From contig JAOAGL010000001.1 in the NCBI GenBank assembly GCA_026415775.1, forward strand, positions 270,233 to 334,232: DNA of 64,000 nucleotides, read 5' to 3'. This DNA is from Patescibacteria group bacterium (GTDB lineage Bacteria > Patescibacteriota > Minisyncoccia > UBA6257 > JAAZHW01). Positions 7,272 through 46,195 of this stretch are shown here, piece by piece. A program made the position numbers and the translations under genes. Within the stretch, counting starts at the first letter, position 1, and every line of letters starts with the position of its first letter. Under the pieces are notes generated by a model. The model was not told where the DNA came from. It did no database searches and saw nothing but the letters and a program-made list of their open reading frames with translations.

Positions 7272-7324
7272 TATTTTTGAATGGGATTAAAACGCTTATT
7301 TTAAGCAATTATTTTAAAAATTTT

Positions 7325-10300
7325 ATGTCATTTTTTGATAAAAAAATTAGTTCCAAAGCATTCACCTTAATTGAAATTTTAATCTACACAGCAATTTTTG
7401 GCGTTGTGGCTGCTGGTATTATCGGTGTTGCGTGGAACATCACGCGTCTTCACACAACCCAAATTGCTTCTAATGAAATTGATGAAAATTTGCGTTATGT
7501 AATGAATTTAGTAAATTCTAAAGTTCGTGAGGCTTCACTGATTGTACAGGCAAGTGGAACGACTTTAATTTTGCGGATGCCCGATTCACTAAAAAGTCCT
7601 ACAACATTTTCTTTAAACAATGGCACTTTATACATTCAAGAAGGAAGCGCTGATCCTGTAGCAATTACTTCCAATCGTGTTGAGGTTACTTCTTTGAATT
7701 TTGAATATATAAGCGTTGCTGGTAGTAAGGGTGGCGTGCGAGTTAATATTGCGATGGCATACAAAGAGCAGCCAGGTATTGCTTCGCGTGAATACATCAC
7801 AACAGTTACTAAGGTTAATGCCATCGTTTTTGATTCAGACATTATACCAGATGTAACTAATTCAAGAAGTGTTGGTATTAATACGGCGCAATGGAAGGAT
7901 GGTTATTTTTCTAGAAATGTAATAGTTGGCGGCGATGTTTCATCAACCGGTTTTATTATCGGTGGAGCTGGTCTTTGTATGGGAACTGATTGTCGTACTT
8001 CTTGGGGTCAGGTTACAGGCGTTACTGGTTCCGGCACACAAAATTATATTGCTAAATGGACCTCTTCTGGCTCTATTGGTAATTCGCAAATTTTTGATAA
8101 TGGGACTAATGTGGGTATTGGGACGACAAGTCCCAATGTAAAATTACATATTTCGAATACTACGGCAGGAATAAACGAACTATTGCGTTTAGCTTATAAC
8201 AATTCAGTGGGTTCAGGAGCGAGATTATCATGGTGGGCAGGAGATACCGTGTCAGAAACGGGGCGGATAGAAAACTTTGTAGATGCAGGAAATCAAGTGA
8301 GTTTAAGATTTTATACTTATAATTCTGGACTCGGTGAAAGAATGCGCATTACAGCTGCTGGTAATGTTGGTATCGGCACAGCATCTCCTCCTTCTCTTCT
8401 TTCCGTCGGCGCATCATCGCAATTTCAAGTTAATTCTTCTGGTGATATAGTTAAAATCAAAAACCTTACTTATTCCTGGCCATCCTCTCATGCTGTCGGA
8501 TTTCTTAAAAACGACGGCTCGGGTAATTTAACTTGGGATACTTCTGGCGCAGTTGGCGGCACAGGTTCAGCTGGCCAAGTGGCTTTTTGGTCCTCAACAA
8601 CAACGATAACAGGCGATAGCGGTTTTTATTGGGATAATACTAACAAAAGATTAGGTTTAGGCACAACTGCACCTGGTCAACGTTTATCTGTTGTTGGCGA
8701 TATTGGTTTATCTGGTGGCGATCGTTTTATTGGCACAACCGACGCCTATGGTTTAAGCATCAGAACAAACAATACCAATAGAATTTTCATTTCCGCTGAT
8801 GGTAATGTCGGTATTGGTACTACTTCGCCAAGCAGAACATTAGATGTTCATGGTATTGCGCAATTACGCGGCGCTGCCGGCGGCACTGGTTTATTTGTTG
8901 ATTCTGGTGGTAATGTGGGTATTGGGACGACAAGTCCAGCATTTAAACTTGATGTTAGTGGATCAGCTCGAGTTACCAATGTATTTAAAGAAGGCAATTG
9001 GCGTCACGTACTTTCTTCTTATGTTACTGCTACCCCTACTAATGGTGTTTTGTTAACTACCGCCATTCCTTATGATGGTGTTACAAATAGAGGAATGCAT
9101 GGTATTCGGGTGATGGGATATGCCTTTGGAGAGTCTAGACCTATAGATTTTGAAGTGGTATTTTATCTTTATACTTCTGGTTTTAATAGCTACGGCTGGA
9201 CAAATTATGGAGCTCATGACCCAGGAACAATTAAACTTTCTTATGAAGGTAATGTTGTTAAATTATGGTGGTCTTCTAAAGTTTATTATGCTAGTTATGA
9301 AATATTTACAAAAAGTCATGGAGCACTTGGCCAAAACGATTCATGGTTTGAGGGGTGGACCATCACTGATGCAGTAGCTCCTACTTCAAATGTTGTAGAT
9401 GTTCCATATCGAAATGCAATGCCTTATGGACTTGCAATGCGCGGCAATATTAATTTAAATGGAAATTGGCTTTCTGGAGACGGAGATAATGAGGGTGTTT
9501 ATATAAATGCTTCAGGTAATGTTGGTATTGGAGCAACAAGTCCATCATATCGATTAGATGTAGCTGGTGATATTAATACATCAGGTTATTTTAGAGGTAA
9601 TGGTTCCCAAATAACTAATTTAAATGCTTCTAATTTAACAAGTGGTATTGTGCCTGCAGCACGACTTTCATCTACGCAAGCTTATTATACTTTAGATCCG
9701 ATTTTTCCAAAAACAAATCAGCAACATACAACTTTAGGAGGAGCGACAATTGGTGAAATTGCTTTGTCGTCTGCTTATGTTCAAAATAAATTGCAATTTG
9801 TTTTACCTTATAGTATTGAATATACAACCAATGGAACAACCTGGAATACTTATCCTGATCCAGTTGATAGTGATACAGTTAAAAAAATGTTTTTGGGTTA
9901 TAACGCCGGGGGTAAAATTTATCTCCGTGGTCCCAATAATGGAAATTGGCTTGGTTTGCGCATAACATGGCAGGCACCTTCGTATTATTTCTTGAATTAT
10001 TTCTATACTTACATGAGTACTTCAGGACATCAATGTGCAATTACAATAGAAAAGACATATGGAGATGATTTGAATACATGGATTACTGTTGCTACAACGA
10101 CTAATTTTTCTAGTTGGCCTGGGCATACTCTTGTTCCTCATTCGAATATTGCGTGGAATCCGACACCTACTCCAGGTACTCATTCTAAATATGTACGAGT
10201 GACTTTTACTCCCACATGGAATGGATCTTATCCTAATAATAATATTGATATTTATGCAATAGATTGGTTTGGAGAATATCCAGCTAATATCAAACCCATG

Positions 10301-13300
10301 CAATTATTTACTTGGGATTTTGATAAAAATGTTACATTTGATAATGGATTAAGAATGCCTGGTAGTATTGGTATTGGGACAACAAATCCTATTCAAAAAT
10401 TACACGTCGAAGGAAATGCTTATATTTCAGGAAGTGTCGGCATTGGCACGACAAATCCAAATACTTTACTCGATGTAAGGGGAAGAATTAACACGCCAGA
10501 AATAGCTTTTCGTAATAGTGACGGAGGTGATGATAGTGACCCTTATCGTTTAAGAAAATATCAATTTGGTTCAAGCTCTAATGAACTTCAGCTTCAGTTA
10601 AATGATGATAGTGATGAAAGATTTGCTATTTATGGTAATTCTTGTAGTGGTTATAGTTGTGGTGAATATAGTGGTAATCTTTATCATTTCTTTAAAGCAG
10701 ATGGAACGGCTTATCATGCTGGCAACGTCGGTATCGGCACAACAAGTCCCTCATATAAATTAGACGTCTCAGGAGATATTCGTGCTACAGGAACTATTTA
10801 TGGAACATTCTCTGGTACAATCAATGCTGCTAATGTTTCAGCCGGTTCATTTGGTGCTAACACTGGTGGTGGCAATTATTCCTTCCCAGCGAATCTGACT
10901 GTTAGTGGAGCTGTTGGTATTGGGACGACGAATCCGGGGGTGAAATTAGATGTAGTAGGGGGATATATTAGAACTTGGGGTGGAGAGTTTATATCATATA
11001 AAGAGAATCCTGGAGGAATTTTGGGGGCTTTAGCTTTGGAAGGAAAAAATGCTTCCTCAACCAATCCTTATATGAAAAGATGGACTTTGTTTAATATGCA
11101 AGATTATTCTGGTGTGAATGGTTTTGTCATCTATGAATATTATGATGCAAATAATGATGGTAGTTATTGTAATGATGGCGGAGCATGTAATATGAGATTT
11201 ATTATTGCAAGTGGGGGTAATGTTGGTATCGGAACTGCCACTCCTGCTTATCCATTAGATGTAGTAGGTGATGTTAGATTCTCAGGCACTCTTCAAGGTG
11301 GTTCAGTGCCATGGGCTCGTTTAACTTCTTTCCCATCAGCTTGTTCTGCTGGCAATGCAGTAACTGGATTAGGCTCAACTCTTACTTGTTCGCCATTTAT
11401 GACTAATCCAATGACTACATTGGGTGATATCATCTACGGCGGTTCCAGTGGCACACCAACCCGTTTAGCTGGCTCAGCTGGTTTTCTTAAATCAACTGGC
11501 GCTGCTGCGCCTTCTTGGAGCGCTGTTAATCTTGCTTCCTCTGATGTAACAGGCACTTTAGCAGTAACTAGTGGCGGTACAGGTTTATCTTCTATTGCGG
11601 CTGGCTCTATTCTTTATGCTACTTCTTCTAATACTTTAATTGCCATTGCTCCAACTGCCGCTAATCAGGTTTTAAGGTCAACCGCTGCTAATGCCTTGCA
11701 ATTTGGCGCATTAGTTGCTGCTGATATTCCTAATTTAGACGCTAGTAAAATTACTTCAGGAACTTTTGGTATTGCTCGTGGCGGTACTAACTCAACTGCT
11801 ACTCCCACTGCTGGCGCTGTAGCTTATGGTACTGGTTCAGCTTATGCTTTTACTGCTGCTGGTACAGCTAACCAAGTTTTAATTTCAGGCGGCACCAGCA
11901 CTCCCACCTGGTCTAACATCGCTTCATTACTCACTCAAGGCACTAACATCACTATTTCTGGCACCACCAATGCCACTATTGCCACGGTTAACAACCCAAC
12001 TTTCTCTACTTCTGTTTCAACACCATTATTAACCAGCTCAGGCGCTATTGCTATTAAACCCGGTTCTAATTCAACCACCGCTATTCAATTACAAAATACC
12101 GGTGGTACAGCCATTGTTAATGTTGATACAACGAATAGTAGAGTAGGTATTAATAATGCAAGTCCCAGCTATGCTTTAGATATTACAGGCGATATCCGCG
12201 TTACTGGTGCCATCATTGGTACAGTTTCAACAACAATTTCGGCAACCAATGTTTCAGCCGGCGCTTTTGGTTCTAACACTGGTGGCGGCAATTATTCTTT
12301 CCCAGCCAGAGTAGGAATAGGCACAACGTCACCAAGTACAGATTTGCATATAAAAGTTTCAAGCGGTGATGTGAAAATACAACTGGGTACTCAAGCAAGT
12401 GTTGTGCCAACTACTGGAGGACCAAATAATCCTTCGGCAGCGGTCGATGATTCAAGCAATGGAGGTTCGGCTGTTTGGAGTAATCCAACCAATGTTTATA
12501 CCTCTAATGACGTTTATGCGTCAGTTACAATACCAGCAGGTGTGGATCCAGATTATTATTGGAGCGATTATTTGAAAGCGACGGGTTTTGGATTTTCTCT
12601 TCCTAGCACCGCTAATATTCTTGGGATTAAGGTAGAAATAGAGGCAAAGGCGAGCGTTGCTTCGACATTAACAATAAATGAAGTATTATTAGTTAAATCA
12701 GGTTCAATTGTTGGTAGCAGCAAAAGCGGAGGACTTCTAACTGCATCAGATGCGTACTACTCATTTGGTGATACAACTGATTTGTGGGGAACAACTTGGT
12801 CTTACTCAGATATTAACAATTCCAATTTTGGCGTGGTTGTGAGTGTATTTAATCCTACAACATCAGCAAGAACGGCTTATATAGACCACATTAGAATAAC
12901 CGTTTATTATACCAGCAGTGGAGATGCAGATTGGCAGATGGCAGTATCTTCAACAAGCGGCGCTTTCATTATAAATCCTTTATTTAGTGGTGGAAGAGTG
13001 GGCATTGGAACTACAACGCCATCGGCAACTTTAGATATAAATGGGACTCTTAATGTAAATGGAATTATTCAAGGAAAGTTTTATGATAAATATACTGGCA
13101 GCATTTCCCGCACTTATTCTAGTGGAAATGGAACTTCAAGCTTGAGCACGGGCAAATATTATCCTGATTGGTTCTGTGCCCTATCTAAAGTTGATGCTAC
13201 AGAGTTAGATACTGCTACCGAACATGCTTATTGCACGGTTACTCTCGACGGTAATAATCAGTGGCTTTTAAATGCTGTAATTAGCGGCGTCTCGGATCAA

Positions 13301-13336
13301 ACGGTTTCTTGTAGTATTTATTGCATACGATTATAA
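7325..13336 (+). CDS. giant (~2000 aa) prepilin-leader surface protein with tail-fibre-like 'GNVGIGTTSPxxKLDVxG' repeats
   Basis: Best start is the ATG at 7325 (MSFFDKKISSKA|FTLIEILIYTAIFGVVAAG), a class III/prepilin-type leader. The ORF track's 7277 start is a TTG. The remainder is G/S/T/N-rich with at least 11 repeat copies, two ~50-aa paralogous segments and a Cys-containing C-terminal domain. Confidence 0.6.
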   Translation: MSFFDKKISSKAFTLIEILIYTAIFGVVAAGIIGVAWNITRLHTTQIASNEIDENLRYVMNLVNSKVREASLIVQASGTTLILRMPDSLKSPTTFSLNNGTLYIQEGSADPVAITSNRVEVTSLNFEYISVAGSKGGVRVNIAMAYKEQPGIASREYITTVTKVNAIVFDSDIIPDVTNSRSVGINTAQWKDGYFSRNVIVGGDVSSTGFIIGGAGLCMGTDCRTSWGQVTGVTGSGTQNYIAKWTSSGSIGNSQIFDNGTNVGIGTTSPNVKLHISNTTAGINELLRLAYNNSVGSGARLSWWAGDTVSETGRIENFVDAGNQVSLRFYTYNSGLGERMRITAAGNVGIGTASPPSLLSVGASSQFQVNSSGDIVKIKNLTYSWPSSHAVGFLKNDGSGNLTWDTSGAVGGTGSAGQVAFWSSTTTITGDSGFYWDNTNKRLGLGTTAPGQRLSVVGDIGLSGGDRFIGTTDAYGLSIRTNNTNRIFISADGNVGIGTTSPSRTLDVHGIAQLRGAAGGTGLFVDSGGNVGIGTTSPAFKLDVSGSARVTNVFKEGNWRHVLSSYVTATPTNGVLLTTAIPYDGVTNRGMHGIRVMGYAFGESRPIDFEVVFYLYTSGFNSYGWTNYGAHDPGTIKLSYEGNVVKLWWSSKVYYASYEIFTKSHGALGQNDSWFEGWTITDAVAPTSNVVDVPYRNAMPYGLAMRGNINLNGNWLSGDGDNEGVYINASGNVGIGATSPSYRLDVAGDINTSGYFRGNGSQITNLNASNLTSGIVPAARLSSTQAYYTLDPIFPKTNQQHTTLGGATIGEIALSSAYVQNKLQFVLPYSIEYTTNGTTWNTYPDPVDSDTVKKMFLGYNAGGKIYLRGPNNGNWLGLRITWQAPSYYFLNYFYTYMSTSGHQCAITIEKTYGDDLNTWITVATTTNFSSWPGHTLVPHSNIAWNPTPTPGTHSKYVRVTFTPTWNGSYPNNNIDIYAIDWFGEYPANIKPMQLFTWDFDKNVTFDNGLRMPGSIGIGTTNPIQKLHVEGNAYISGSVGIGTTNPNTLLDVRGRINTPEIAFRNSDGGDDSDPYRLRKYQFGSSSNELQLQLNDDSDERFAIYGNSCSGYSCGEYSGNLYHFFKADGTAYHAGNVGIGTTSPSYKLDVSGDIRATGTIYGTFSGTINAANVSAGSFGANTGGGNYSFPANLTVSGAVGIGTTNPGVKLDVVGGYIRTWGGEFISYKENPGGILGALALEGKNASSTNPYMKRWTLFNMQDYSGVNGFVIYEYYDANNDGSYCNDGGACNMRFIIASGGNVGIGTATPAYPLDVVGDVRFSGTLQGGSVPWARLTSFPSACSAGNAVTGLGSTLTCSPFMTNPMTTLGDIIYGGSSGTPTRLAGSAGFLKSTGAAAPSWSAVNLASSDVTGTLAVTSGGTGLSSIAAGSILYATSSNTLIAIAPTAANQVLRSTAANALQFGALVAADIPNLDASKITSGTFGIARGGTNSTATPTAGAVAYGTGSAYAFTAAGTANQVLISGGTSTPTWSNIASLLTQGTNITISGTTNATIATVNNPTFSTSVSTPLLTSSGAIAIKPGSNSTTAIQLQNTGGTAIVNVDTTNSRVGINNASPSYALDITGDIRVTGAIIGTVSTTISATNVSAGAFGSNTGGGNYSFPARVGIGTTSPSTDLHIKVSSGDVKIQLGTQASVVPTTGGPNNPSAAVDDSSNGGSAVWSNPTNVYTSNDVYASVTIPAGVDPDYYWSDYLKATGFGFSLPSTANILGIKVEIEAKASVASTLTINEVLLVKSGSIVGSSKSGGLLTASDAYYSFGDTTDLWGTTWSYSDINNSNFGVVVSVFNPTTSARTAYIDHIRITVYYTSSGDADWQMAVSSTSGAFIINPLFSGGRVGIGTTTPSATLDINGTLNVNGIIQGKFYDKYTGSISRTYSSGNGTSSLSTGKYYPDWFCALSKVDATELDTATEHAYCTVTLDGNNQWLLNAVISGVSDQTVSCSIYCIRL

Positions 13337-13390
13337 AATAAATAAAAAATAATCAATAAATAAAAAATAATCAATAAATAAAAAATAACA
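13337..13390. repeat. 3 tandem copies of the 18-bp AT-rich unit AATAAATAAAAAATAATC (third copy degenerate)
   Basis: Read directly from the sequence, immediately after the stop of the giant ORF. Confidence 0.5.
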
Positions 13391-13425: not shown

Positions 13426-13953
13426 ATGAAAAAAAATACTTTAATAATTATTACAGGACTCATCCTAATAGTAATTATTGGTCTTATCATACTTATTAAG
13501 CCCGCAAGTAAAAATCCGAATCCCACTCCTACATTAAGCGGAGAAAATACTCCGACTAAAGGGGAAATACCCAAAGATGTTAAAGTTTATAATGCTGGTG
13601 AGTCGGCGCCAGAAGGAACAGCCGTGCCAGACAGCGTTTCCGATTATGGGTTGACAAAACTCCGCTCTTTTACGATGAAAATCGAAGATGGCGTTTTTAC
13701 CCCGCAAACCTTTATCTGTTATGAAGGCGAGATGATGAAAATTTGGATTACAGCAATTGATAAAGATTATGATGTTGTTCAGCCAGATAATGGTTTAAAG
13801 TTGATAATTAAAAAAGGCGAAACGAAATTTATTGAATCGCAAATGAATGATATCGGAAAATTTACTTTTTATTGTGAATCTTGCGGGGGGTTAAATTCAA
13901 AAGCAGTGGGTTATATGATAGTTGTTCCTAAGCCAGTCAAAAAATCACAATAA
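13426..13953 (+). CDS. membrane-anchored protein with a C-terminal cupredoxin-like domain (inferred)
   Basis: N-terminal TM helix (LIIITGLILIVIIGLIILI). The C-terminal ~100 aa follows a plastocyanin-like pattern (..VFTPQTF.C.EGE...W.....D..V.....G...I.KGET..F.....G.FTFYCESCGG....GYMIVV). Canonical His ligand positions are not conserved. Confidence 0.3.
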   Translation: MKKNTLIIITGLILIVIIGLIILIKPASKNPNPTPTLSGENTPTKGEIPKDVKVYNAGESAPEGTAVPDSVSDYGLTKLRSFTMKIEDGVFTPQTFICYEGEMMKIWITAIDKDYDVVQPDNGLKLIIKKGETKFIESQMNDIGKFTFYCESCGGLNSKAVGYMIVVPKPVKKSQ

Positions 13954-14036
13954 ACCTCTTTCCTTTTTTAAATCCAGGCGTTATAATTAAAATAATTTAA
14001 GGTCGATTTATATAGGTCGTTTTTAATTAAAAAATT

Positions 14037-14456
14037 ATGGAAAAAGTCAAAAAAACAATTCTCATTCTTATTTTAGTAATTATTTTAATTATTATTATTG
14101 TGGGAATTGCAGCTTTGATTATTAAAGGAGGCAGCGTAAAAAATCTTTTTAGTAATCAAGCGAGTGGAAAATATCATTTAGTATATGTTCAGACAGGAAA
14201 TGGAAGCGCTAGTTATTATGGGCAGATTATTAAAGAGGGAGAAAATTATGTTTTATTGAAGGACCCCGGATACATCAATATTCAAGCCGCTCAGAAAGAA
14301 GGAGAGCAGCCGCAAGTAAGTTTTGCTTTAATGAAAGACGAATTTTTCAAGCCAATTTCAGAGATGAAAATTTATAAGAGCAATATTGTTTTTATTCAGC
14401 AGTTGGCTGATGATTCTCCAATAGTAAACTTTTACAAAAATCAGTTAAGTAAATAG
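14037..14456 (+). CDS. hypothetical N-terminally membrane-anchored protein
   Basis: Single N-terminal TM (ILILILVIILIIIIVGIAALII) followed by a ~110-aa soluble domain. No recognisable motif. Confidence 0.4.
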   Translation: MEKVKKTILILILVIILIIIIVGIAALIIKGGSVKNLFSNQASGKYHLVYVQTGNGSASYYGQIIKEGENYVLLKDPGYINIQAAQKEGEQPQVSFALMKDEFFKPISEMKIYKSNIVFIQQLADDSPIVNFYKNQLSK

Positions 14457-14468
14457 GGCAAATTGAAA

Positions 14469-14519
14469 AATCCCCCAAATGCAGACTTAAACTAATTGTT
14501 AGTTTGTATTTGGGGGATT
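14469..14519 (+). promoter_or_regulatory. two-level hairpin (12-bp outer stem AATCCCCCAAAT/ATTTGGGGGATT, inner stem AAACTAA/TTAGTTT) ending 11 nt before the GGDEF gene start
   Basis: Perfect complementarity read from the sequence. No clear U-tract follows, so it is either a weak terminator for the upstream gene or an element governing GGDEF translation. Confidence 0.4.
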
Positions 14520-14530
14520 GTTTATAAATT

Positions 14531-15115
14531 ATGTCACCATCAACAAAATCAGAAATTGAAAAATTGAGAAAAGAAATTATAGCCTTGAAAAGAATAGCCA
14601 TTAAAGATCCTTTAACAGGGTTATATAATAGACGGGGATTATTGGAGCAGGGAGAGAAATTTTTGAAAATGATGGAGCGTTTAAGAGAAAATAAATTTCC
14701 AGAAAGTGGCAATTCTTTTAATTTAGGTGTTATTTTAATTGATTTAGATGATTTTAAGAAAATCAATGATGTTTATGGACATAAAACTGGTGATGAAGTG
14801 CTAAAAAAAATTGCGGAATTGCTGGAAGAATCTTTGCGTAAATCAGATATTATTAGTCGGTGGGGAGGCGATGAATTTGCAATATTAATTTTTGATATAA
14901 ACAAACCTATTTTAACAAAAATTGCCGGACGAATTCAGGAGAAAATTTGCAACCACACTTTTTTGGTTAAAAAGCGAAAAATCAATCTCACTATTAGCTT
15001 GGGCGCAACTCTTTTTTCCAATGTTAATCTGGATTTAGAGAAAGAAATAGAAAAAGCCGATAAAGCGATGTATCGCGCTAAAAAGCGAGGGAAAAATAAT
15101 TTTGTTATTATATAG
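14531..15115 (+). CDS. stand-alone GGDEF-domain diguanylate cyclase
   Basis: 'DPLTGLYNRRGL', 'ILIDLDDFKKINDVYGHKTGDEVL', an intact active site 'RWGGDEFAIL' and an I-site RxxD at the canonical spacing (RKSD-IISRW-GGDEF). Only a ~25-aa coiled-coil N-terminus, with no sensor domain. Confidence 0.8.
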   Translation: MSPSTKSEIEKLRKEIIALKRIAIKDPLTGLYNRRGLLEQGEKFLKMMERLRENKFPESGNSFNLGVILIDLDDFKKINDVYGHKTGDEVLKKIAELLEESLRKSDIISRWGGDEFAILIFDINKPILTKIAGRIQEKICNHTFLVKKRKINLTISLGATLFSNVNLDLEKEIEKADKAMYRAKKRGKNNFVII

Positions 15116-15142
15116 TAAAGGGGGTCTTAATGAAGTTAATTT

Positions 15143-16594
15143 ATGCAAAAGAAAATTAAGCGTTTAATGTTTGTTATCGCGATTCTGCTTTTTTTGTTTA
15201 TGGCGGTAATGTTTATTGTTTATTCTTGGGGATATCGCTGGAATCAAAAAGAGTGGAAATTTGTTAAAACAGGAGGACTATACTTGCGAGTTTATAATAG
15301 CAAACCAGAAATTTATTTGAATAATCAATATCTTAAAAAAGCTACGCCGGGACTTTTAAGCAACGGCATTTTTTTATCTAATTTAATTCCTGATAATTAC
15401 TTATTAAAAATTAGCAAACCAAATTATTTTTCTTGGGAGAAAGAAGTTGTAATTGAACCACAAATGGTGACGACCTTTTCTTCTATTGTTTTATTACCAA
15501 AAAATCCTTTATCAAAAAGTATCTATTCTTCTAATGAAACATCTTCTGTTGAAATTTTAGATATTTTACCCTTGAAAAATGGTAAAGAACTAATTATTCA
15601 AGCGATTGAAGAAGGAACTTCAACTAGCGCCGTGCTTTTTATTTATAATTTTAATAATCAAAACCAATTGGAAATTTATAGAAAGAAAATTAATAAAGGA
15701 GAAAATTTCAATTTAATTTCTAATTTAATAATAGCTGATAATGACGCTAATCAAATTATTTTTCCGGTTGTTGTTAACAAAACAACTAATTTTTATTTGT
15801 GGGAGAGAATAAATCCGGAAAATATAAAGAATATCTCGCAAACAATTATTTCACAATTCAAATTTAAAAACCCTATTAAAAAAATTGATTTTTATCCCAA
15901 TACCGAAAATAAATATATTATTTTAACCGGCACGGATTTAATGCTTGTTGATTTGAACAAAAACGAAATGAAAAAAATATTTTTAGACGTAAAAGATTTT
16001 GCGAGAAAGGATTACAATATGTTGGTTATAAATAATCAAGGCGCGGCATTTAGTTATAATTTGATTTTAGATACTAGCTCGCCATTGGGGATTTTAGAAC
16101 TAGAAAAAGAAAATAGCATCAAGAAAATTCAAATATCGCCAAAGAATAATTATTATAGCGTACAATTAAATAACGGAGATTTATATCTTTTAAAAAGCGG
16201 CGAAGAAATAACGCTTCTTAAATCAATATCTTTATTTGCTTTTTCAAATGATGACAAAAAATTGGCTTATATAAATAAAGATAACGAATTACATGTCAAA
16301 TATTTAACGGATTTCACTGGTGATTTTTTACAAAAAAAGGGAGAAGATGTTTTAATAAAAAAATTAACTGAGCCCATAAATAATTTAATCTGTCATTCTG
16401 ATTTAAATCATTTAATTTATCAAAGCGAGAATAAAATTTATTTTGCGGAAATTGATGTGCGCGATGCGGTGAATATTTTTGAATTAAATTTTAACGGAAA
16501 TAATTTTTATTTAGAAGGAGGGAAAAATGGAACTATTTTTACTTGGAATGAAAAGACAATCAAAAGAATAGATTTGCTTTATGAACAGCTATAA
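15143..16594 (+). CDS. membrane-anchored PEGA-domain protein with a large beta-rich C-terminal region
   Basis: N-terminal TM (LMFVIAILLFLFMAVMFIVY). 'GGLYLRVYNSKPEIYLNNQYLKKATPGLLSNGIFLSNLIPDNYLLKISKPNYFSWEKEVVIEP' fits the PEGA pattern (L.V.S.P..A.IYL.G...G.TP..L..L..G.Y.L.ISK.GY). Confidence 0.45.
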   Translation: MQKKIKRLMFVIAILLFLFMAVMFIVYSWGYRWNQKEWKFVKTGGLYLRVYNSKPEIYLNNQYLKKATPGLLSNGIFLSNLIPDNYLLKISKPNYFSWEKEVVIEPQMVTTFSSIVLLPKNPLSKSIYSSNETSSVEILDILPLKNGKELIIQAIEEGTSTSAVLFIYNFNNQNQLEIYRKKINKGENFNLISNLIIADNDANQIIFPVVVNKTTNFYLWERINPENIKNISQTIISQFKFKNPIKKIDFYPNTENKYIILTGTDLMLVDLNKNEMKKIFLDVKDFARKDYNMLVINNQGAAFSYNLILDTSSPLGILELEKENSIKKIQISPKNNYYSVQLNNGDLYLLKSGEEITLLKSISLFAFSNDDKKLAYINKDNELHVKYLTDFTGDFLQKKGEDVLIKKLTEPINNLICHSDLNHLIYQSENKIYFAEIDVRDAVNIFELNFNGNNFYLEGGKNGTIFTWNEKTIKRIDLLYEQL

Positions 16595-16640
16595 TCCAAA
16601 TTGATTTTTGGAAATAAATCTGCTACATTAAAGAGAGATT

Positions 16641-18320
16641 ATGCAACAAAATGATAAAAATGCACAATTAGCTGAGATGATTAAAAAGGCGCAACTGGCT
16701 GCTGAAGAAAGAGAGGCAGAGCGATTAGCTAATTCTTTGGGTTTGAAATATGGAGATTTAACAAAAATATCTGCTCAAACAGACGCGCTGGAATTGATTA
16801 ATGAAGAAGAAGCCAAGGTCGCTCTTTGCGCTCCTTTTTTGCTGAAACAAAAAACTATTTTATTAGCTTGTAAAAACCCTGCTTTGGAGGCAACTAAAAA
16901 TGTAATAGAAGGTTTGAGAAGTAAAGGTTATGATTTGGATATTTATGTTGTTTCTTTAAGGTCGTTAGAGAATCTTTGGCAAGGTTATCGCTTTATTGTG
17001 GGTAGAAAAAAAGAAATTACTGGCGGTATAGAAGTAGACAAAGACCATTTGGCAAGCATAATGAATGAAGTTAAAACGACCTCATCTTTAAAAGAAAAAA
17101 TACAAAATTTTGATAGTCCTTATATTTCTCAAATTTTTGAAATTATTATTGCTGGAGCAATAGCGATGGATGCTTCGGATATTCATATTGAACCAGAAGA
17201 AAGCGGCATTCGTTTGAGATATCGTTTGGATGGCGTTTTGCAAGATATTTCAGCATTAAATCAGCATCATTATCGCTCGATTATTTCAAGAATTAAATTA
17301 TTGGGCGGTATGAAAATCAATGTTCATACAGCGCCGCAAGATGGAAGGTTCACAATTAAAACTTATGATGTTGATATCGAGGTGCGTGTTTCTATTATTC
17401 CGAGCGCTTATGGTGAAACGGTTGTAATGCGTTTGCTTAATCCCAAAAACATTCAATTGGATTTAAAAAATTTAGGTTTTCGTGAAGATGATTTGGCCAT
17501 TATGGAGGAGCAAATTGGGCGCCCCAATGGTATTATTTTGAATACTGGTCCAACAGGGTCAGGTAAAACAACGACCTTATACGCTTTTTTAAGACGTATT
17601 TATAATCCAGAAATTAAGATTATTACTGTTGAAGACCCCATTGAATACCACTTGGAAGGAATAACCCAGACGCAAGTAAATCCAACGCGTAACTATACCT
17701 TTGCTTCTGGTTTGCGGTCAATTTTGCGTCAAGACCCCGATGTAATTTTAGTGGGTGAGATTCGCGATAATGAAACAGCAGAGATTGCTATGCATGCTGC
17801 TTTAACGGGCCATCTCGTTTTTTCTACTTTGCATACTAATGATGCTTGTGGTACAATTCCTCGGTTATTGGATATGAATATCCAGCCAGCAATTCTGGCG
17901 CCAGCATTAAATCTGGCTATTGCTCAGCGTTTGGTTAGAAAATTATGCCAACACTGTAAAGAAGCTGTGGAATTAACGCCAGAACAAGCTGACAAAATTA
18001 GAAAGATGGTTGAAAAAATGCCCGAAAGAGTTAAGAAGCCACAATTGGGGGATAAGATTGTTATTTATAAATCTAAAGGTTGCGAGCATTGCAATGGAAC
18101 AGGTTATAAAGGAAGAGTGGCGGTAGCAGAATTGCTGGTGGTTGATAGAGATATTCAAAATTTAATTACGCGCTCAGAGAAAATGCCGACGGCGGCGGAA
18201 ATTAAAGATATGGCTATTCAAAAAGGAATGACAACAATGGAGGATGATGCGATTTTAAAAATTTTGGATGGTATTACAAGTTTATCTGAGGCGGAAAATG
18301 TTTTGGGTAAACTTCTATAG
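16641..18320 (+). CDS. PilB/GspE-family type IV filament assembly ATPase (paralog 1)
   Basis: Walker A 'GPTGSGKTTT', Asp/His boxes, and a tetracysteine motif CQHCKE...CEHCNGTGYKGR. 559 aa. Confidence 0.85.
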   Translation: MQQNDKNAQLAEMIKKAQLAAEEREAERLANSLGLKYGDLTKISAQTDALELINEEEAKVALCAPFLLKQKTILLACKNPALEATKNVIEGLRSKGYDLDIYVVSLRSLENLWQGYRFIVGRKKEITGGIEVDKDHLASIMNEVKTTSSLKEKIQNFDSPYISQIFEIIIAGAIAMDASDIHIEPEESGIRLRYRLDGVLQDISALNQHHYRSIISRIKLLGGMKINVHTAPQDGRFTIKTYDVDIEVRVSIIPSAYGETVVMRLLNPKNIQLDLKNLGFREDDLAIMEEQIGRPNGIILNTGPTGSGKTTTLYAFLRRIYNPEIKIITVEDPIEYHLEGITQTQVNPTRNYTFASGLRSILRQDPDVILVGEIRDNETAEIAMHAALTGHLVFSTLHTNDACGTIPRLLDMNIQPAILAPALNLAIAQRLVRKLCQHCKEAVELTPEQADKIRKMVEKMPERVKKPQLGDKIVIYKSKGCEHCNGTGYKGRVAVAELLVVDRDIQNLITRSEKMPTAAEIKDMAIQKGMTTMEDDAILKILDGITSLSEAENVLGKLL

Positions 18321-18332
18321 TTTTTGAAAATT

Positions 18333-18360
18333 AAATCCGCCTCAATAATGAGGCGGATTT
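18333..18360 (+). terminator. hairpin terminator (AAATCCGCCTCA / loop ATAA / TGAGGCGGATTT)
   Basis: Perfect 12-bp stem directly after the PilB stop. A weak T-rich tail follows. Confidence 0.55.
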
Positions 18361-18386
18361 AATTTAGATAAAATTATAAAAAAATA

Positions 18387-39467: not shown

Positions 39468-40508
39468 ATGCGTGTTTTGGGTATTGATATCGGGACAACA
39501 AATATTAAGGCGGTAGAATTATCTGGCACAGTTGACCAGCCAATTTTAGAAAACTATGGCATTTTAGAAACTTACGGATATCTTGAACGCAATAACGCCA
39601 CAATTCAAAGCAATTATTTTAAATTGGTGGAAGATGTAACAATTGATTTAGTAAAAAAACTCTTTTTGGTTTTAAAACCCAAAACCAAAAGGGCTGTTTT
39701 CTCTTTGCCGGTTTTTTCCAGTTTCATAACCCAATTTGACTTACCCTTTACAGACAAAAAAGAAATTGCTACGGCTGTAACTTTCGAGGCAAAAAAATAT
39801 ATACCCGTGCCATTAGAAGAGTTGGAAATTAGTTGGATGTTGGTTGGTCAAACTACAGAAGGAACAAAAGAGAAAAGTAATATTGTATTGGTAGCCACAC
39901 CAAGAGAATTGGTTGAAAAATATAGGAGAATAGGACAGGCAGTAGGTCTGAATGTGTTGGGCTGGGAAGTCGAAGGCATTTCGTTAATTCGTTCACTAAT
40001 CAAGGGTGATAAAAGAAATACTTTGATTATTGATATGGGAACACAGATTACCAATTTTTTTATTGTTGAAAATGGTTTTTTAGTAAGTTATGAAACTTTA
40101 AATATTGGAGGCGCAGAAATCACTCATGTTATTAGTCGAAGTCTAGGCGTTAATAAAGAAAGAGCGGAGGAATTTAAAAAGATAAAAGGTTTTAAGGTGG
40201 ATCCTCAAGAAATGGGTGTCGTTAATATTTTAATGCCGATTGTGGATAACTTTGGCAATGAAATTTTAAGAATGATGGATATTTATCAGCAAAAGAATAA
40301 TAAAAAAATCGAACGCATTATTATTACTGGCGGAGGAGCTAATATGCCTGGTTTGGTGGAGTATTTTGAGGATTTTTTGAATACTTCCGTTGAAAAGGGT
40401 TGGCCGTTTCAGGATATAAAGTATGTTGATTTCTTAGAGCCTCTTTTGCGCGATGTGGCACCTTTTCTTTCTATTTCCACAGGGGCGGCGCTTAAGGGCT
40501 TGGAATAG
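39468..40508 (+). CDS. pilM: type IV pilus assembly protein PilM (actin-like ATPase)
   Basis: 'MRVLGIDIGTTNIKAVEL' FtsA/PilM-type N-terminus. Followed by pilN- and pilO-like genes. Confidence 0.7.
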   Translation: MRVLGIDIGTTNIKAVELSGTVDQPILENYGILETYGYLERNNATIQSNYFKLVEDVTIDLVKKLFLVLKPKTKRAVFSLPVFSSFITQFDLPFTDKKEIATAVTFEAKKYIPVPLEELEISWMLVGQTTEGTKEKSNIVLVATPRELVEKYRRIGQAVGLNVLGWEVEGISLIRSLIKGDKRNTLIIDMGTQITNFFIVENGFLVSYETLNIGGAEITHVISRSLGVNKERAEEFKKIKGFKVDPQEMGVVNILMPIVDNFGNEILRMMDIYQQKNNKKIERIIITGGGANMPGLVEYFEDFLNTSVEKGWPFQDIKYVDFLEPLLRDVAPFLSISTGAALKGLE

Positions 40509-40536
40509 TCTGTAAAAAATATTATAATTTAAATAT

Positions 40537-41070
40537 ATGGCTGAGTTTCAAAATATAGATTTATACGCTAAAAAAAGATCTGGTGGATGGTTGGGTAGAT
40601 TATTAACCCTTTCAATAATTTTACTAATTATTTCTTTGGGGTTGTATTTTATTGCCGTATTTTATCAAAACTATCTAAATAAAAACATTAGTGATTTAAA
40701 CAATAAAATAAAATCTTTAAGCAATGAGATTTCCGAAACCGATAGAAGGGAAGTTCTAGGCTTTTATTCGCAATTAATAAATTTAAAAGCGCTGCTTAGT
40801 AATCATTTATATTCTTCCAAAATTTTTGAACGATTAGAATTGATTACTCATCCAAAAGTTGCCTTTTCCGCATTTTCTTATGATTATAAAAATAAAACTT
40901 TAAAAATAGATGGTTATTCAAATAATTTGGAGTTTTTGGCTCAACAAATGTTGGCATTTCAAAAAGTTTCCGAATTTAATAAGGTGAATTTATCCAACGT
41001 AAGAATAGCTGGTGATAAGGTCACTTTCGCTTTTGAAATTACTTTTAATCCCAATTTCGTTTTAAAATAA
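40537..41070 (+). CDS. pilN: PilN-like bitopic membrane protein
   Basis: Single TM after a short cytoplasmic N-terminus, a coiled coil, 177 aa. Position is after pilM. Confidence 0.45.
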   Translation: MAEFQNIDLYAKKRSGGWLGRLLTLSIILLIISLGLYFIAVFYQNYLNKNISDLNNKIKSLSNEISETDRREVLGFYSQLINLKALLSNHLYSSKIFERLELITHPKVAFSAFSYDYKNKTLKIDGYSNNLEFLAQQMLAFQKVSEFNKVNLSNVRIAGDKVTFAFEITFNPNFVLK

Positions 41071-41077
41071 TCAAACT

Positions 41078-41680
41078 ATGAAAGAAACAACAAAAAGAAA
41101 TTTTAGTTTAATACTGACAATCATATTCTTTTTAATATCCGTGATAACCTTCTTTAATTATACGTGGCCAAATTTACTTAAAGTTCTTGATTTAAATGAT
41201 AGTTTGAAGCTTGTTAAAGAAGAATATGCTCGTCAGAGCAAATCTTTACAGCTGGCGAAAGACATAATTAATCAGTATAAAAATTTATCAAACGTTAATC
41301 AAATGATTTCATTAACGCTCCCCAAAACCGACGAGCTTTTTAACGTTTTAGCACAATTGGATAAAATTTCTTCTGAAAGCGGAATATTAATCCAAAATAT
41401 CACCATTAAACCTCCTCTTCAAAGTGCAACATCCACGGCAACTGGTGTTGATGGTGGTAGTGCAAAAGCATCTTTAATTAACGCGGTTCAATCTGTTAAT
41501 GTTGATTTGTCTATGGTTGGCACATACGAATCTTTTAAAACTTGGTTAAATGCTATAGAAACTAATATAAGATTAATGGATGTTACCTCCATTAATTTTA
41601 CTGGCGTGGTTGCTTCGGAAAAAACAACAACTAATATTTTTAATTTCCGCGTCAATCTAAATTTTTATTATCAACCATAA
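41078..41680 (+). CDS. pilO: PilO-like bitopic membrane protein
   Basis: N-terminal TM, coiled coil, 200 aa. Position between the pilN-like gene and pilB. Confidence 0.4.
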   Translation: MKETTKRNFSLILTIIFFLISVITFFNYTWPNLLKVLDLNDSLKLVKEEYARQSKSLQLAKDIINQYKNLSNVNQMISLTLPKTDELFNVLAQLDKISSESGILIQNITIKPPLQSATSTATGVDGGSAKASLINAVQSVNVDLSMVGTYESFKTWLNAIETNIRLMDVTSINFTGVVASEKTTTNIFNFRVNLNFYYQP

Positions 41681-41681
41681 T

Positions 41682-42044: not shown

Positions 42045-42051
42045 TTTTACA

Positions 42052-43812: not shown

Positions 43813-43848
43813 AATTGGTTTATAATATAAAATAAAATAGAAAAACAT

Positions 43849-44922: not shown

Positions 44923-44925
44923 AAT

Positions 44926-46137: not shown

Positions 46138-46195
46138 ATTTGATTTTAATATTTTAAAATATATAAAAGGTCGATTTATCAAAAAATAAATAAAA

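What the first reader, a model, noticed from the sequence alone, without database searches (positions are those of the whole stretch)
13426..18320. Accessory module downstream of the giant pilin-like gene: cupredoxin-like protein, GGDEF cyclase, PEGA-domain protein and an orphan PilB ATPase
Five + strand genes follow the giant pilin-like ORF and end at a terminator (18333-18360). Their products are a TM-anchored cupredoxin-like protein, a small TM-anchored protein, a stand-alone GGDEF diguanylate cyclase, a TM-anchored PEGA-domain protein, and a complete PilB/GspE ATPase. The window also contains a full canonical pilM-N-O-B-T-C-pilA-pilD operon at 39.5-47.6 kb with its own PilB. This PilB is therefore a second, uncoupled secretion/assembly ATPase placed beside a giant PilD-substrate-like protein and a c-di-GMP synthase. 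Inference: this may be a distinct, possibly c-di-GMP-regulated, filament or adhesin assembly system that borrows PilC/PilD/PilMNO from the main operon.
Basis: inference. Interest (0 to 1): 0.7.

Follow-up and report, generated by a model that had tools for sequence, protein, structure and literature searches.

The report
Giant fibre-pilin cassette with spare PilB
An ultra-small (Patescibacteria) bacterium keeps a 2,000-residue pilus-tip protein built like a phage tail fibre next to its own extra pilus motor ATPase, a membrane-anchored beta-propeller protein and, in some relatives, a c-di-GMP synthase; this is a good candidate for the host-recognition device, but c-di-GMP control of the motor is not supported.

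Summary
Five + strand genes (13426-18320) follow a giant pilin gene and end at a strong hairpin.

Corrections:
- The "PEGA protein" is mainly an 8/9-bladed beta-propeller behind a membrane anchor.
- The cupredoxin-like protein has no histidine, so it lacks a canonical copper site.
- A conserved hairpin sits 12 nt before the GGDEF start codon.

Comparison of about 45 related loci shows three nested layers:
1. PilB-1 is 42% identical to the operon PilB. It belongs to an old Patescibacteria clade of stand-alone PilB paralogues that sit next to ruvB.
2. One sub-clade has a fixed triad of modular pilin, propeller protein and PilB-1. The triad persists where both flanks have rearranged.
3. A narrower group has GGDEF, a small membrane protein and sometimes the cupredoxin-like protein inserted. 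Three close relatives lack GGDEF.

The GGDEF enzyme looks active. However, neither PilB has the MshEN c-di-GMP motif, even in relaxed form.

Best reading: a pilus-tip adhesin cassette with a dedicated ATPase that relies on the single PilC/PilD/PilMNO set. It is a new variant of a known kind.

By-product: a covariation-supported ~200-nt RNA with no Rfam match lies between PilB-1 and ruvB.

The parts
7277..13336 (+). Giant modular prepilin (2019 aa from TTG 7277; probably 2003 aa from ATG 7325). It has a class III signal peptide, a GspJ/PilW-like pilin module (about residues 20-180), then a fibre of about 1,850 residues with nine GxVGIGTTxP motifs and a Cys-rich C-terminal domain.
13426..13953 (+). 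g1: membrane-anchored extracellular cupredoxin-like beta-sandwich (175 aa). It has no histidine and a conserved FYC(E/D)xCGGLNS motif.
   Evidence: Present in only part of the clade, and in swapped order with g2 in L029.
14037..14456 (+). g2: small membrane-anchored protein (139 aa) with a highly conserved ectodomain of about 100 aa and unknown fold.
   Evidence: No Pfam, NCBIfam or PDB match. 34 invariant columns across 7 orthologues. 24 metagenomic loci found with it, nearly all in the same cassette. No similarity to PilN, PilO or the 120-aa operon protein.
14469..14519 (+). Conserved hairpin (19+3 bp) ending 12 nt upstream of the GGDEF start codon. Candidate attenuator, partial terminator or processing/stability element.
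   Evidence: MFE z -7.3. Retained with compensatory changes in L001 and L002.
14531..15115 (+). g3: stand-alone diguanylate cyclase (194 aa). N-terminal coiled-coil helix plus GGDEF domain with an intact GGDEF active site, guanine-specifying N/D residues and an RxxD inhibitory site.
   Evidence: Pfam 147 bits, TIGR00254 160 bits. GG[DE]EF, RxxD and the N-terminal helix are conserved in 8 of 8 orthologues.
15143..16594 (+). g4: N-terminal membrane anchor, PEGA-like beta-sandwich (about 31-110) and an 8/9-bladed beta-propeller (about 123-477). Predicted to be extracellular.
16641..18320 (+). g5 = PilB-1: PilB/GspE-class hexameric assembly ATPase (559 aa) with Walker A, Asp box, Walker B, His box and two CxxC motifs. 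It has one short N-terminal T2SSE_N-like domain and no MshEN c-di-GMP motif.
18328..18365 (.). 17-bp hairpin terminator shared by PilB-1 (+) and the convergent small RNA (-).
   Evidence: z -8.4. The sequence was read.
39468..47574 (+). Canonical type IV pilus operon pilM-pilN-pilO-(120 aa)-pilB2-pilT-pilC-pilA-pilD. It holds the only PilC, PilD and PilMNO in the window and is the presumed shared platform.
   Evidence: Only two class III signal peptides occur in the window: the giant protein and PilA.

Best explanation
This is a lineage-specific accessory cassette of the type IV pilus system of a Minisyncoccia/Paceibacteria (Patescibacteria) bacterium.

Its conserved core is a triad:
1. A GspJ/PilW-type minor ('tip') pilin fused to a very long, variable fibre that resembles phage tail fibres.
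2. A membrane-anchored extracellular PEGA-plus-beta-propeller protein.
3. A paralogous PilB/GspE-class assembly ATPase (PilB-1).

Working model (inferred):
- The prepilin peptidase PilD of the main operon cleaves the giant prepilin after Ala-12.
- PilB-1 docks on the single PilC/PilMNO platform and powers initiation of a filament that carries the fibre at its tip. The fibre may sit there as a trimer, like the CofB/TcpB tip pilins.
- The propeller protein acts on the outer face of the membrane as a chaperone or partner for the fibre.
- The variable C-terminal fibre recognises the host cell surface.

In a sub-lineage, two small membrane-anchored ectodomain proteins and a soluble, catalytically competent, product-inhibited diguanylate cyclase were inserted between the pilin and propeller genes. 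The cyclase probably supplies a local c-di-GMP signal linked to attachment. Its receptor is unknown, and it is not an MshEN-type site on either PilB.

Shown: gene content, folds, motifs, nested conservation.
Inferred: the physical partnership, tip location, host binding and the role of c-di-GMP.
For: - Triad conservation. g4-subfamily genes are followed by a PilB-1 orthologue in all 25 distinct loci that cover the junction. Spacing is 2-122 nt in most.
- A pilin-module gene lies upstream wherever the contig extends: window, L003, L005, L006, L007, L015, L029, L034, L036, L038, L040, L042, L043, L046, L047.
- The block survives a different upstream flank (window vs L003/L005) and loss of downstream ruvB (L007, L015).
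- The pilin module is a genuine GspJ-like minor pilin.
- The fibre is tail-fibre/MAT-like.
- Fibre length varies from 529 to 2019 aa with a conserved N-terminus. Relatives are often cut at contig ends. This is typical of diversifying adhesins.
- PilB-1 has all catalytic motifs. It forms a clade separate from PilB-2, with the cassette clades nested inside it.
- There is only one PilC, PilD and PilMNO in the window and none near any cassette.
- The GGDEF active site and I-site are conserved.
- Precedents from the literature: two T4P systems with large minor pilins used for host binding in Saccharibacteria (PMC12206443); modular tip pilins and trimeric CofB/TcpB (PMC8179133); Bdellovibrio MAT fibres for prey recognition (PMC10769870).
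Against: - No direct evidence exists for any protein-protein contact or for co-transcription.
- More distant PilB-1 orthologues are stand-alone genes beside ruvB. PilB-1 therefore has, or had, a function independent of this pilin.
- The wider g4 family is huge (5192 representatives). Elsewhere it sits next to murA-mreB, not next to PilB, so g4 may be a general envelope protein.
- Most loci share extended synteny (ruvB-LTD-polA-tsaE). Part of the conservation is therefore simple vertical inheritance.
- A conserved hairpin separates pilin-g1-g2 from GGDEF-g4-PilB-1.
- GGDEF is missing in L033, L034 and L038, and no c-di-GMP receptor was found.
- A second PilC elsewhere in the genome cannot be excluded.
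Confidence: 0.5

Rival explanations
1. Inherited synteny without functional coupling. PilB-1 is an ancient stand-alone PilB paralogue of Patescibacteria with its own role, for example a DNA-uptake or other type IV filament, given its constant position beside ruvB and near ruvA/ruvC. The giant pilin, g4, g1, g2 and GGDEF are surface or signalling genes that merely landed upstream. The giant pilin is then assembled by the operon PilB-2.
For: - Orphan PilB-1 orthologues (53-54% identity) in L008, L024, L025 and L026 lack pilin, g4 and GGDEF, but all precede ruvB.
- The same small RNA lies between PilB-1 and ruvB even there.
- The g4 family is Patescibacteria-wide and usually next to murA-mreB.
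- The second T4P locus of TM7x also sits with recombination genes, recAX (PMC12206443).
- The long shared synteny ruvB-LTD-polA-tsaE-murA-mreB.
Against: - In L007/L014 and L015 the pilin-g4-PilB-1 block persists although ruvB and the small RNA are gone.
- g4 to PilB-1 spacing of 2-11 nt in L006, L007 and L010 suggests co-translation.
- The PilB-linked g4 proteins form a separate high-scoring subfamily (over 320 bits against 203 or less).
- The upstream flank has rearranged without breaking the block.
Confidence: 0.28
2. This is an independent filament/adhesin system whose motor PilB-1 is switched on by c-di-GMP made by the adjacent GGDEF enzyme, as in MshE, PilF or Clostridium PilB2.
For: - GGDEF lies between g2 and g4 in 24 loci, in the same order.
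- The enzyme looks active and product-inhibited.
- c-di-GMP control of PilB-type ATPases is well established elsewhere (PMC5013675, PMC11731258).
Against: - Neither the strict nor the relaxed MshEN motif occurs in PilB-1, PilB-2 or 120 relatives.
- The PilB-1 N-terminus lacks the extra helical bundle altogether.
- GGDEF is absent from the older pilin-g4-PilB-1 loci and lost in L033, L034 and L038.
- No PilZ, EAL or HD-GYP domain was found in the 30 further ORFs scanned, which did not cover every ORF of the window. No c-di-GMP riboswitch was found anywhere in the window.
Confidence: 0.12
3. A type II secretion-like pseudopilus. The giant GspJ-like protein and a GspE-like ATPase would form a secretion piston rather than an adhesive pilus.
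For: - PilB-1 scores slightly higher on the GspE model (489 bits) than on the PilB model (470 bits).
- The pilin module is closest to GspJ pseudopilins.
Against: - Both scores are below the equivalog cut-offs.
- No GspC/D/F/L/M homologues were seen.
- Patescibacteria are generally held to lack an outer membrane (established knowledge; not tested here), so they would have no need for a secretin-based T2SS.
- GspJ-like folds are also found in T4P minor pilins such as TTHA1219 and PilW-type proteins.
- A fibre of about 1,850 residues is not compatible with a short periplasmic piston.
Confidence: 0.05

Closest known systems
Modular (tip) type IV pilins, e.g. Streptococcus sanguinis PilB/PilC and ETEC CofB / V. 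cholerae TcpB (PMC8179133)
   Different: The grafted part is about 1,850 residues of tail-fibre-like repeats. The whole protein (2019 aa) is more than twice the 860-aa 'most extreme case' cited in that survey. It is genetically tied to its own PilB paralogue and a propeller protein rather than sitting in a minor-pilin operon.
Second type IV pilus system (T4P-2) of Saccharibacteria TM7x (PMC12206443)
   Same: A Patescibacteria cell with two PilB paralogues. The second system lacks PilT, sits beside recombination genes and uses a large minor pilin (PilX2) for host binding.
   Different: TM7x locus 2 has its own PilC2 and PilM2N2O2. Here no second platform is seen near PilB-1. The pilin, propeller and GGDEF partners are different. 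Homology between PilB-1 and TM7x PilB2 was not tested.
Bdellovibrio MAT (mosaic adhesive trimer) fibres and phage tail fibres (PMC10769870)
   Same: Repeated GxVGIGTTxP-type beta-helical fibre segments with variable tips. Direct sequence hits to Bd3182 and Bd2133 and to PHROG tail-fibre families. Proposed role in recognising another cell's surface.
   Different: MAT fibres have their own conserved N-terminal anchor domain and a Sec signal. Here the anchor is a type IV pilin module. No S74 chaperone domain was detected.
MshE / PilF / Clostridium PilB2: c-di-GMP-binding PilB-type ATPases (PMC5013675, PMC11731258)
   Same: A PilB/GspE-class ATPase encoded near a c-di-GMP synthase. The ATPase core is homologous (PilF 353 bits).
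   Different: The defining tandem 24-residue c-di-GMP motif is absent, even in relaxed form.
PilY1/PilC tip-associated beta-propeller adhesins with minor pilins; the PilY1-PilMNOP-SadC surface-sensing route in Pseudomonas (my own knowledge, not tested)
   Same: A beta-propeller protein, a minor pilin and a diguanylate cyclase associated with a type IV pilus.

Membership tests
PilB/GspE-class type IV filament assembly ATPase (PilB-1) | T2SSE ATPase domain with Walker A, Asp box, Walker B and His box | tested here: met
   Pfam T2SSE 405.7 bits. GPTGSGKT, VEDPIE, DPDVILVGEIRD and TGHLVFSTLHT are present.
PilB/GspE-class type IV filament assembly ATPase (PilB-1) | Tetracysteine zinc-binding motif in the C-terminal domain | tested here: met
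   CQHC at 436 and CEHC at 481.
PilB/GspE-class type IV filament assembly ATPase (PilB-1) | Reaches the curated equivalog threshold of PilB (TIGR02538) or GspE (TIGR02533) | tested here: not met
   470 bits against a cut-off of 675.65, and 489 bits against 630.25. PilB-2 also falls below (556.5 bits).
PilB/GspE-class type IV filament assembly ATPase (PilB-1) | Encoded with its platform partners (PilC/GspF, PilM/GspL) | tested here: not met
   No T2SSF or PilM homologue within 8-10 kb in the window locus or in about 45 related loci. The only copies in the window are at 39468-46137.
MshE-type c-di-GMP-binding ATPase | Tandem 24-residue motif RLGxx(L/V/I)(L/V/I)xxG(L/V/I)(L/V/I)xxxxLxxxLxxQ at the N-terminus (PMC5013675) | tested here: not met
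   No strict, loosened or published relaxed motif in PilB-1, PilB-2 or 120 relatives. Pfam MshEN scores only 19.1 bits, below the 23.1 cut-off, and covers the T2SSE_N part.
Type IV pilin (giant protein) | Class III signal peptide: short basic leader, G/A at -1, hydrophobic helix with Glu at +5 | tested here: met
   MSFFDKKISSKA|FTLIEILIY. Pfam N_methyl 21.3 bits against a cut-off of 21.2. Orthologues have G at -1. Ala at -1 is known from Gram-positive Com pilins (my own knowledge).
Type IV pilin (giant protein) | Pilin fold: long N-terminal alpha-helix packed on an antiparallel beta-sheet | tested here: met
Type IV pilin (giant protein) | Cleavage and N-methylation by PilD and incorporation into a filament | not testable with these tools
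   PilD is encoded at 46642-47574. Processing needs experiment.
GspJ/PilW-type tip minor pilin | Forms a tip complex with GspI/GspK-like (PilV/PilX-like) minor pilins encoded alongside | tested here: not met
   The only other class III signal ORF in the 64 kb window is PilA. No further pilin genes were seen in the cassette of related loci.
GGDEF diguanylate cyclase (g3) | GG(D/E)EF active site, guanine-binding Asn/Asp, RxxD I-site five residues upstream | tested here: met
   RWGGDEF, KINDVYGHKTGD and RKSD are present. All are conserved in 8 of 8 orthologues. Pfam 147 bits, TIGR00254 160 bits.
GGDEF diguanylate cyclase (g3) | c-di-GMP synthesis activity | not testable with these tools
   Needs an enzyme assay.
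PEGA domain protein (g4) | Significant match to Pfam PF08308 | tested here: inconclusive
   No hit for the window protein at E <= 1. 8 of 14 family members hit, best E 5.6e-5. One distant hit, P0014, carries PF08308. The model shows a compatible small beta-sandwich at 31-110.
PilY1/PilC beta-propeller adhesin (g4) | PilY1-type C-terminal propeller | tested here: not met
Cupredoxin (g1) | Cupredoxin fold | tested here: inconclusive
   Pfam 24 bits, below the 27 cut-off. NosZ C-terminus E 8.5e-6. Family profile: nitrosocyanin E 8.6e-4, NosZ 0.02, CupA 0.4. No structure was predicted.
Cupredoxin (g1) | Type 1 or CuA copper ligands (His, Cys, His, Met) | tested here: not met
   The window protein contains no histidine. 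The conserved motif is FYC(E/D)xCGGLNS.
Phage tail fibre / MAT fibre (giant protein C-terminal part) | Sequence similarity to tail-fibre beta-helix repeats | tested here: met
   phrog_9942 tail fibre E 1.3e-32, phrog_18345 E 2.9e-16. PDB 8ojn (Bd3182) E 5e-6, 8ond (Bd2133) E 7e-6. Nine GxVGIGTTxP motifs.
Phage tail fibre / MAT fibre (giant protein C-terminal part) | Trimeric assembly | not testable with these tools
   Only single-chain prediction was available. The monomer model of the first fibre segment has pLDDT below 50.
6S RNA (small RNA at 18375-18578, minus strand) | Match to Rfam RF00013, or closing stem / central bubble / apical stem architecture | tested here: inconclusive
   No Rfam hit at the gathering threshold or at E <= 10. 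The covariation-supported structure has a 27-bp closing stem, a large internal loop and apical stems. The resemblance is by eye only.

The most novel reading that the evidence does not exclude
Paceibacteria/Minisyncoccia display a phage-tail-fibre-like, probably trimeric, host-recognition fibre at the tip of a type IV pilus by fusing it to a GspJ-like minor pilin. They dedicate a separate PilB paralogue and an extracellular propeller protein to launching it from the shared PilC platform. In a sub-lineage, contact of this fibre with the host is coupled to a local c-di-GMP signal through an as yet unknown, non-MshEN receptor. This would be a new way of building a pilus-borne receptor-binding protein, and a direct handle on host specificity in uncultured episymbionts.
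Probability: 0.2. Interest if true: 0.8.

Novelty: new variant of a known kind. Interest (0 to 1): 0.55.

Why it matters
How Patescibacteria find and hold on to their hosts is largely unknown outside a few cultured Saccharibacteria.

This cassette offers a concrete candidate. It is a hyper-variable fibre of tail-fibre type carried on a pilin module. Its presumed motor and partner genes are recognisable across dozens of uncultured genomes.

What it makes possible:
- The fibre's variable tip could be used to predict or compare host range.
- The triad gives a testable case of one pilus platform being served by two assembly ATPases.
- The layered evolution (orphan PilB, then pilin and propeller, then GGDEF) shows how accessory functions accrete on a minimal genome.

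The negative result on the MshEN motif matters too. If c-di-GMP acts here, it does so through a receptor type not yet described for pilus ATPases.

Tried and rejected
- MshEN c-di-GMP site in PilB-1 or PilB-2: strict, loosened and the published relaxed motif are all absent.
- PilB-1 as a recent duplicate: rejected, 42% identity and a separate clade.
- g2 as a PilN/PilO-like alignment protein: hhalign probability below 4%. No PDB, Pfam, NCBIfam or PHROG match.
- g1 as a copper protein: no His ligands.
- PDB sequence search with the g4 profile: nothing useful.
- Other c-di-GMP components in the window: none found. The 30 further ORFs scanned are housekeeping genes (aminoacyl-tRNA synthetases, SMC, RNase III, MreB/C, PBP2, GreA, RF, FtsEX and others), apart from two with no Pfam match (32185-32703 and 37881-38666). 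Not every ORF of the window was scanned. There is no riboswitch in Rfam.
- Known RNA family for the PilB-1/ruvB intergenic element: none.
- Sigma-70 promoter scan of the cassette: no more sites than in shuffled sequence (53 against 64 expected) and nothing convincing upstream of GGDEF or the giant gene.
- Literature search for a prior description of this cassette in Patescibacteria: none found.
NCBIfam and PDB scores were used instead.

Full report
**1. What is in the sequence**

The window has about 33% G+C, and almost all genes lie on the + strand.

- The giant ORF (7277-13336) most likely starts at the ATG at 7325. That gives a 12-residue basic leader followed by FTLIEILIY, a class III (prepilin) signal with Ala at -1 and Glu at +5.
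- Downstream lie g1 (13426-13953), g2 (14037-14456), g3 (14531-15115), g4 (15143-16594) and g5/PilB-1 (16641-18320).
- A 17-bp hairpin at 18328-18365 follows PilB-1 (z -8.4).
- A second strong hairpin (14469-14519, z -7.3) ends 12 nt before the GGDEF start codon. It is kept, with compensatory changes, in the two closest relatives examined.
- GGDEF, g4 and PilB-1 are tightly spaced (27 and 46 nt). The gaps giant-g1, g1-g2 and g2-g3 are 89, 83 and 74 nt.
- The canonical operon pilM-N-O-(120 aa)-pilB2-pilT-pilC-pilA-pilD is confirmed at 39468-47574.
- The giant protein and PilA are the only two ORFs in the window with a class III signal.

**2. The individual proteins**

*PilB-1.* It is a complete PilB/GspE-class ATPase.
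- T2SSE domain at 406 bits. Walker A, Asp box, Walker B, His box and two CxxC motifs are intact.
- It is 42% identical to PilB-2.
- Against solved structures it is about equidistant from PilF, PilB and GspE (353, 347 and 341 bits). PilB-2 is clearly closest to T4aP PilB (401 bits).
- NCBIfam gives the same picture: PilB-1 scores GspE 489 and PilB 470; PilB-2 scores PilB 556 and GspE 507. All are below the equivalog cut-offs.
- The PilB-1 N-terminus is short. It aligns only weakly with Pfam MshEN/T2SSE_N (19 bits, below the cut-off).
- The tandem 24-residue c-di-GMP motif defined for MshE (PMC5013675) is absent. This holds for the strict form and the authors' relaxed form, in PilB-1, PilB-2 and all 120 closest database relatives.

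*g3.* It is a 194-aa stand-alone GGDEF protein.
- An N-terminal amphipathic helix probably serves as a dimerising coiled coil (inference).
- It has an intact RWGGDEF site, the Asn/Asp pair that specifies guanine, and an RKSD I-site five residues upstream.
- All of these are conserved in eight orthologues.

*g4.* It gave no Pfam domain for this copy.
- An AlphaFold model built on 13 homologues (pLDDT 84.5) shows a membrane helix (3-28), a small beta-sandwich (31-110) and a large all-beta domain (123-477).
- Eight of 14 family members hit PEGA weakly.
- The positive-inside N-terminus (MQKKIKR) places the bulk of the protein outside the cell (inference).

*g1.* It has a membrane anchor and sub-threshold but consistent cupredoxin similarity. 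It contains no histidine, so a type 1 or CuA copper site is excluded. A FYC(E/D)xCGGLNS motif is conserved.

*g2.* It is a membrane-anchored protein with a very well conserved ectodomain of about 100 aa. It has no detectable relatives of known function and no similarity to PilN or PilO.

*The giant protein.*
- Its first approximately 165 mature residues model as a classical pilin 'lollipop'.
- The remaining approximately 1,850 residues are rich in Gly, Ser and Thr and carry nine GxVGIGTTxP motifs.
- This part matches PHROG tail-fibre families (E 1e-32) and the solved Bdellovibrio fibres Bd3182 and Bd2133 (PMC10769870).
- The protein is therefore a GspJ/PilW-type tip pilin fused to a tail-fibre-like fibre.

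**3. Comparative genomics**

Related loci came from four sources:
- exact-protein look-ups;
- a scan of GTDB species genomes with the g4 profile;
- a metagenome scan with the g2 profile;
- tblastn/blastp labelling of these loci.

This gave about 45 loci, all from Patescibacteria (Minisyncoccia, Paceibacteria, Parcubacteria). They reveal three nested layers, which a neighbour-joining tree of PilB-1 relatives reproduces.

(a) *Orphan PilB-1 next to ruvB.* The most distant PilB-1 orthologues (53-54% identity: L008, L024, L025, L026) are stand-alone genes.
- They have no pilin, g4 or GGDEF nearby.
- All are followed by ruvB after a 200-950 nt gap. ruvA and/or ruvC lie close by in all four.

(b) *The triad.* At 56-58% identity (L006, L007/L014, L015) a pilin-module gene of 529-715 aa and a g4 orthologue lie directly upstream of PilB-1.
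- Gaps are 6-43 nt (pilin to g4) and 2-11 nt (g4 to PilB-1). L015 is the exception, with a 1.4 kb insert.
- L007 and L015 have no ruvB downstream. The triad is therefore not held together merely by the ruvB synteny.

(c) *The GGDEF insert.* At 64% identity or more the order is pilin-(g1)-g2-GGDEF-g4-PilB-1-ruvB.
- This order appears in the window and in 20-odd further loci.
- L029 has g2 before g1. L003 and L005 lack g1.
- L033, L034 and L038 lack GGDEF altogether, with only 143-320 nt between g2 and g4.

Across all 25 distinct loci that cover the junction, the g4 subfamily is always followed by PilB-1.

The upstream flank of the block differs between lineages. The window has a PaaX-like regulator, S16 and DJ-1 upstream. 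L003 and L005 have FtsH, a pseudouridine synthase and a PIN protein.

Pilin orthologues keep the N-terminal 290-525 residues (33-55% identity) and in part the C-terminal domain. They vary from 529 to 2019 aa.

Many contigs begin or end inside or just after this gene. This suggests it breaks assemblies, as hyper-variable repeat-rich adhesin genes do.

No PilC, PilM or PilD homologue was seen in any flank.

Two findings temper the picture.
- First, the g4 family is very large. A profile search found 5192 representatives at 50% clustering. Only six high-scoring representatives (over 320 bits) form the PilB-linked subfamily.
- The distant members (23-25% identity, 415-440 aa) sit divergently from murA-mreB-holB, not near PilB.
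- No second g4-like gene occurs in the window. g4 could therefore be this lineage's version of a general envelope protein.
- Second, most loci of layer (c) share long synteny (ruvB-LTD-polA-tsaE-murA-mreB). Part of the conservation is simple vertical inheritance.

**4. Interpretation**

The best-supported reading is an accessory cassette of the type IV pilus system. Its core is the triad of GspJ-like fibre pilin, extracellular propeller protein and PilB paralogue.

The model rests on established knowledge of type IV filaments. Minor pilins of GspJ/PilW type prime assembly and stay at the tip. Modular pilins present grafted modules there. CofB and TcpB are trimeric tip pilins (PMC8179133).

Applied here (inference):
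- PilD processes the giant prepilin.
- PilB-1, working on the single PilC/PilMNO platform, launches a filament tipped by the fibre.
- g4 assists outside the membrane.
- The variable fibre binds the host.

Saccharibacteria provide a precedent: two PilBs and two pili. The second system lacks PilT, lies next to recAX, and uses a large minor pilin for host binding (PMC12206443). That system has its own PilC and PilMNO, unlike this one.

I put about 0.5 on this model. The main rival, at about 0.28, is that PilB-1 is an old independent paralogue and its adjacency to the pilin is inherited synteny.

- The cyclase looks active and is positionally conserved.
- However, the defining receptor motif was tested and is absent.
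- GGDEF is a late and dispensable addition.

A T2SS-like reading is unlikely (0.05).

**5. Novelty**

Each ingredient is known: a second PilB in Patescibacteria, modular tip pilins, tail-fibre-like adhesins, and links between c-di-GMP and pili.

I found no description of three things:
- the fusion of a GspJ-like pilin module to a fibre of tail-fibre type of up to about 2,000 residues;
- its fixed linkage to a propeller protein and a dedicated PilB paralogue with no platform of its own;
- the layered accretion that includes a minimal GGDEF enzyme.

I therefore class it as a new variant of a known kind, with interest 0.55.

**6. By-product: a conserved small RNA**

The 482-nt spacer between PilB-1 and ruvB holds a conserved element of about 200 nt (18375-18578) on the minus strand.
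- It has a perfect extended sigma-70 promoter at 18629-18601.
- It ends at the same hairpin that follows PilB-1.
- It folds much better on the minus strand (-111 kcal/mol, z -9.8) than on the plus strand.
- It is conserved at DNA level in 12 loci fetched earlier and in further metagenomic loci.
- A covariance model also finds it in the orphan-PilB locus L008 (E 3e-11), and weakly in L025 and L024. It is always between PilB-1 and ruvB and antisense to them. In L010 it is inverted and has no ruvB beside it.
- On 17 distinct sequences, 28 of 53 pairs show changes on both sides and 95.5% of cells pair. Slid controls give 41-60%.
- No Rfam family matches.
- Its shape (a 27-bp closing stem, a large internal loop, apical stems) recalls 6S RNA. 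That is unproven.

Noticed in passing
window 18375-18578, minus strand (promoter 18629-18601; terminator 18328-18365): A conserved structured RNA of about 200 nt lies between PilB-1 and ruvB, antisense to both, with no Rfam match. It has its own perfect TTGACA-17-TATAAT promoter with a TG extension. 28 of 53 base pairs covary. It occurs in at least 17 loci, including the orphan-PilB locus L008, and is inverted in L010. Its architecture looks 6S-like, but that is unproven.
   Followed up: yes
window 14469-14519: A strong hairpin ends 12 nt upstream of the GGDEF start codon. It is kept with compensatory changes in L001 and L002. It could be an attenuator, a processing or stability element, or a translational control element. 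Its 3' arm contains GGGGGA.
   Followed up: partly
L016-L023 (e.g. L021 9968-11281, Wolfebacteria CP011209; L018 10001-11266, Saccharibacteria): The TM/PEGA-like/propeller family of g4 is Patescibacteria-wide, with 5192 representatives at 50% clustering. In distant lineages it sits divergently from murA-mreB-holB. In L017 and L018 it follows a response-regulator-like 124-aa gene. This suggests a general envelope or cell-shape role for the family.
   Followed up: partly
L008, L024, L025, L026 (PilB at about 8001-11677): Stand-alone PilB-1 orthologues are embedded among ruvA, ruvB and ruvC in distant Patescibacteria. The conserved link between a PilB paralogue and Holliday-junction genes parallels the recAX-linked second T4P locus of TM7x, and may point to a DNA-uptake role.
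   Followed up: partly
window 7277-13336: The giant gene has a higher G+C content (0.40) than its surroundings (0.29-0.35). Its own protein was not returned by the 5.8-billion-protein search with its N-terminus (best hit 68-69%, partial proteins at contig ends). Relatives' contigs often break at this gene.
   Followed up: partly
window 13337-13388: A perfect A-rich 18-nt tandem repeat (AATAAATAAAAAATAATC, 2.9 copies) lies immediately after the stop codon of the giant gene.
   Followed up: no
window 19831-21159: A protein with two lamin-tail domains (LTD, E 1e-35) and a C-terminal membrane anchor follows ruvB. It is conserved in that position in most related loci. It is another likely surface protein.
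   Followed up: no
window 5406-5987: Three genes upstream of the giant gene (S16 and DJ-1 lie between) is a 193-aa protein that combines a PadR/winged-helix region with a PaaX-type Cas2-like domain (E 1e-15). It is a possible transcription regulator of unknown target.
   Followed up: no
proteins P0033-P0106: Many Moranbacteria and Parcubacteria PilB relatives are 700-980 aa, yet score as highly as the 560-aa ones. No single-alignment identity was reported for them. This suggests insertions, possibly inteins, in the ATPase. They were not examined.
   Followed up: no
window 25566-26573 and 30371-31423: There are two MreB-type genes in one 64-kb window. The first is identified by synteny with L001 next to murA/holB. 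The second scores 422 bits on Pfam and is followed by mreC and a PBP2-type transpeptidase.
   Followed up: no
window 41682-42044: A 120-aa ORF is wedged between pilO and pilB2 in the canonical operon. It has only a weak DUF948 hit and may be an uncharacterised pilus assembly component.
   Followed up: no
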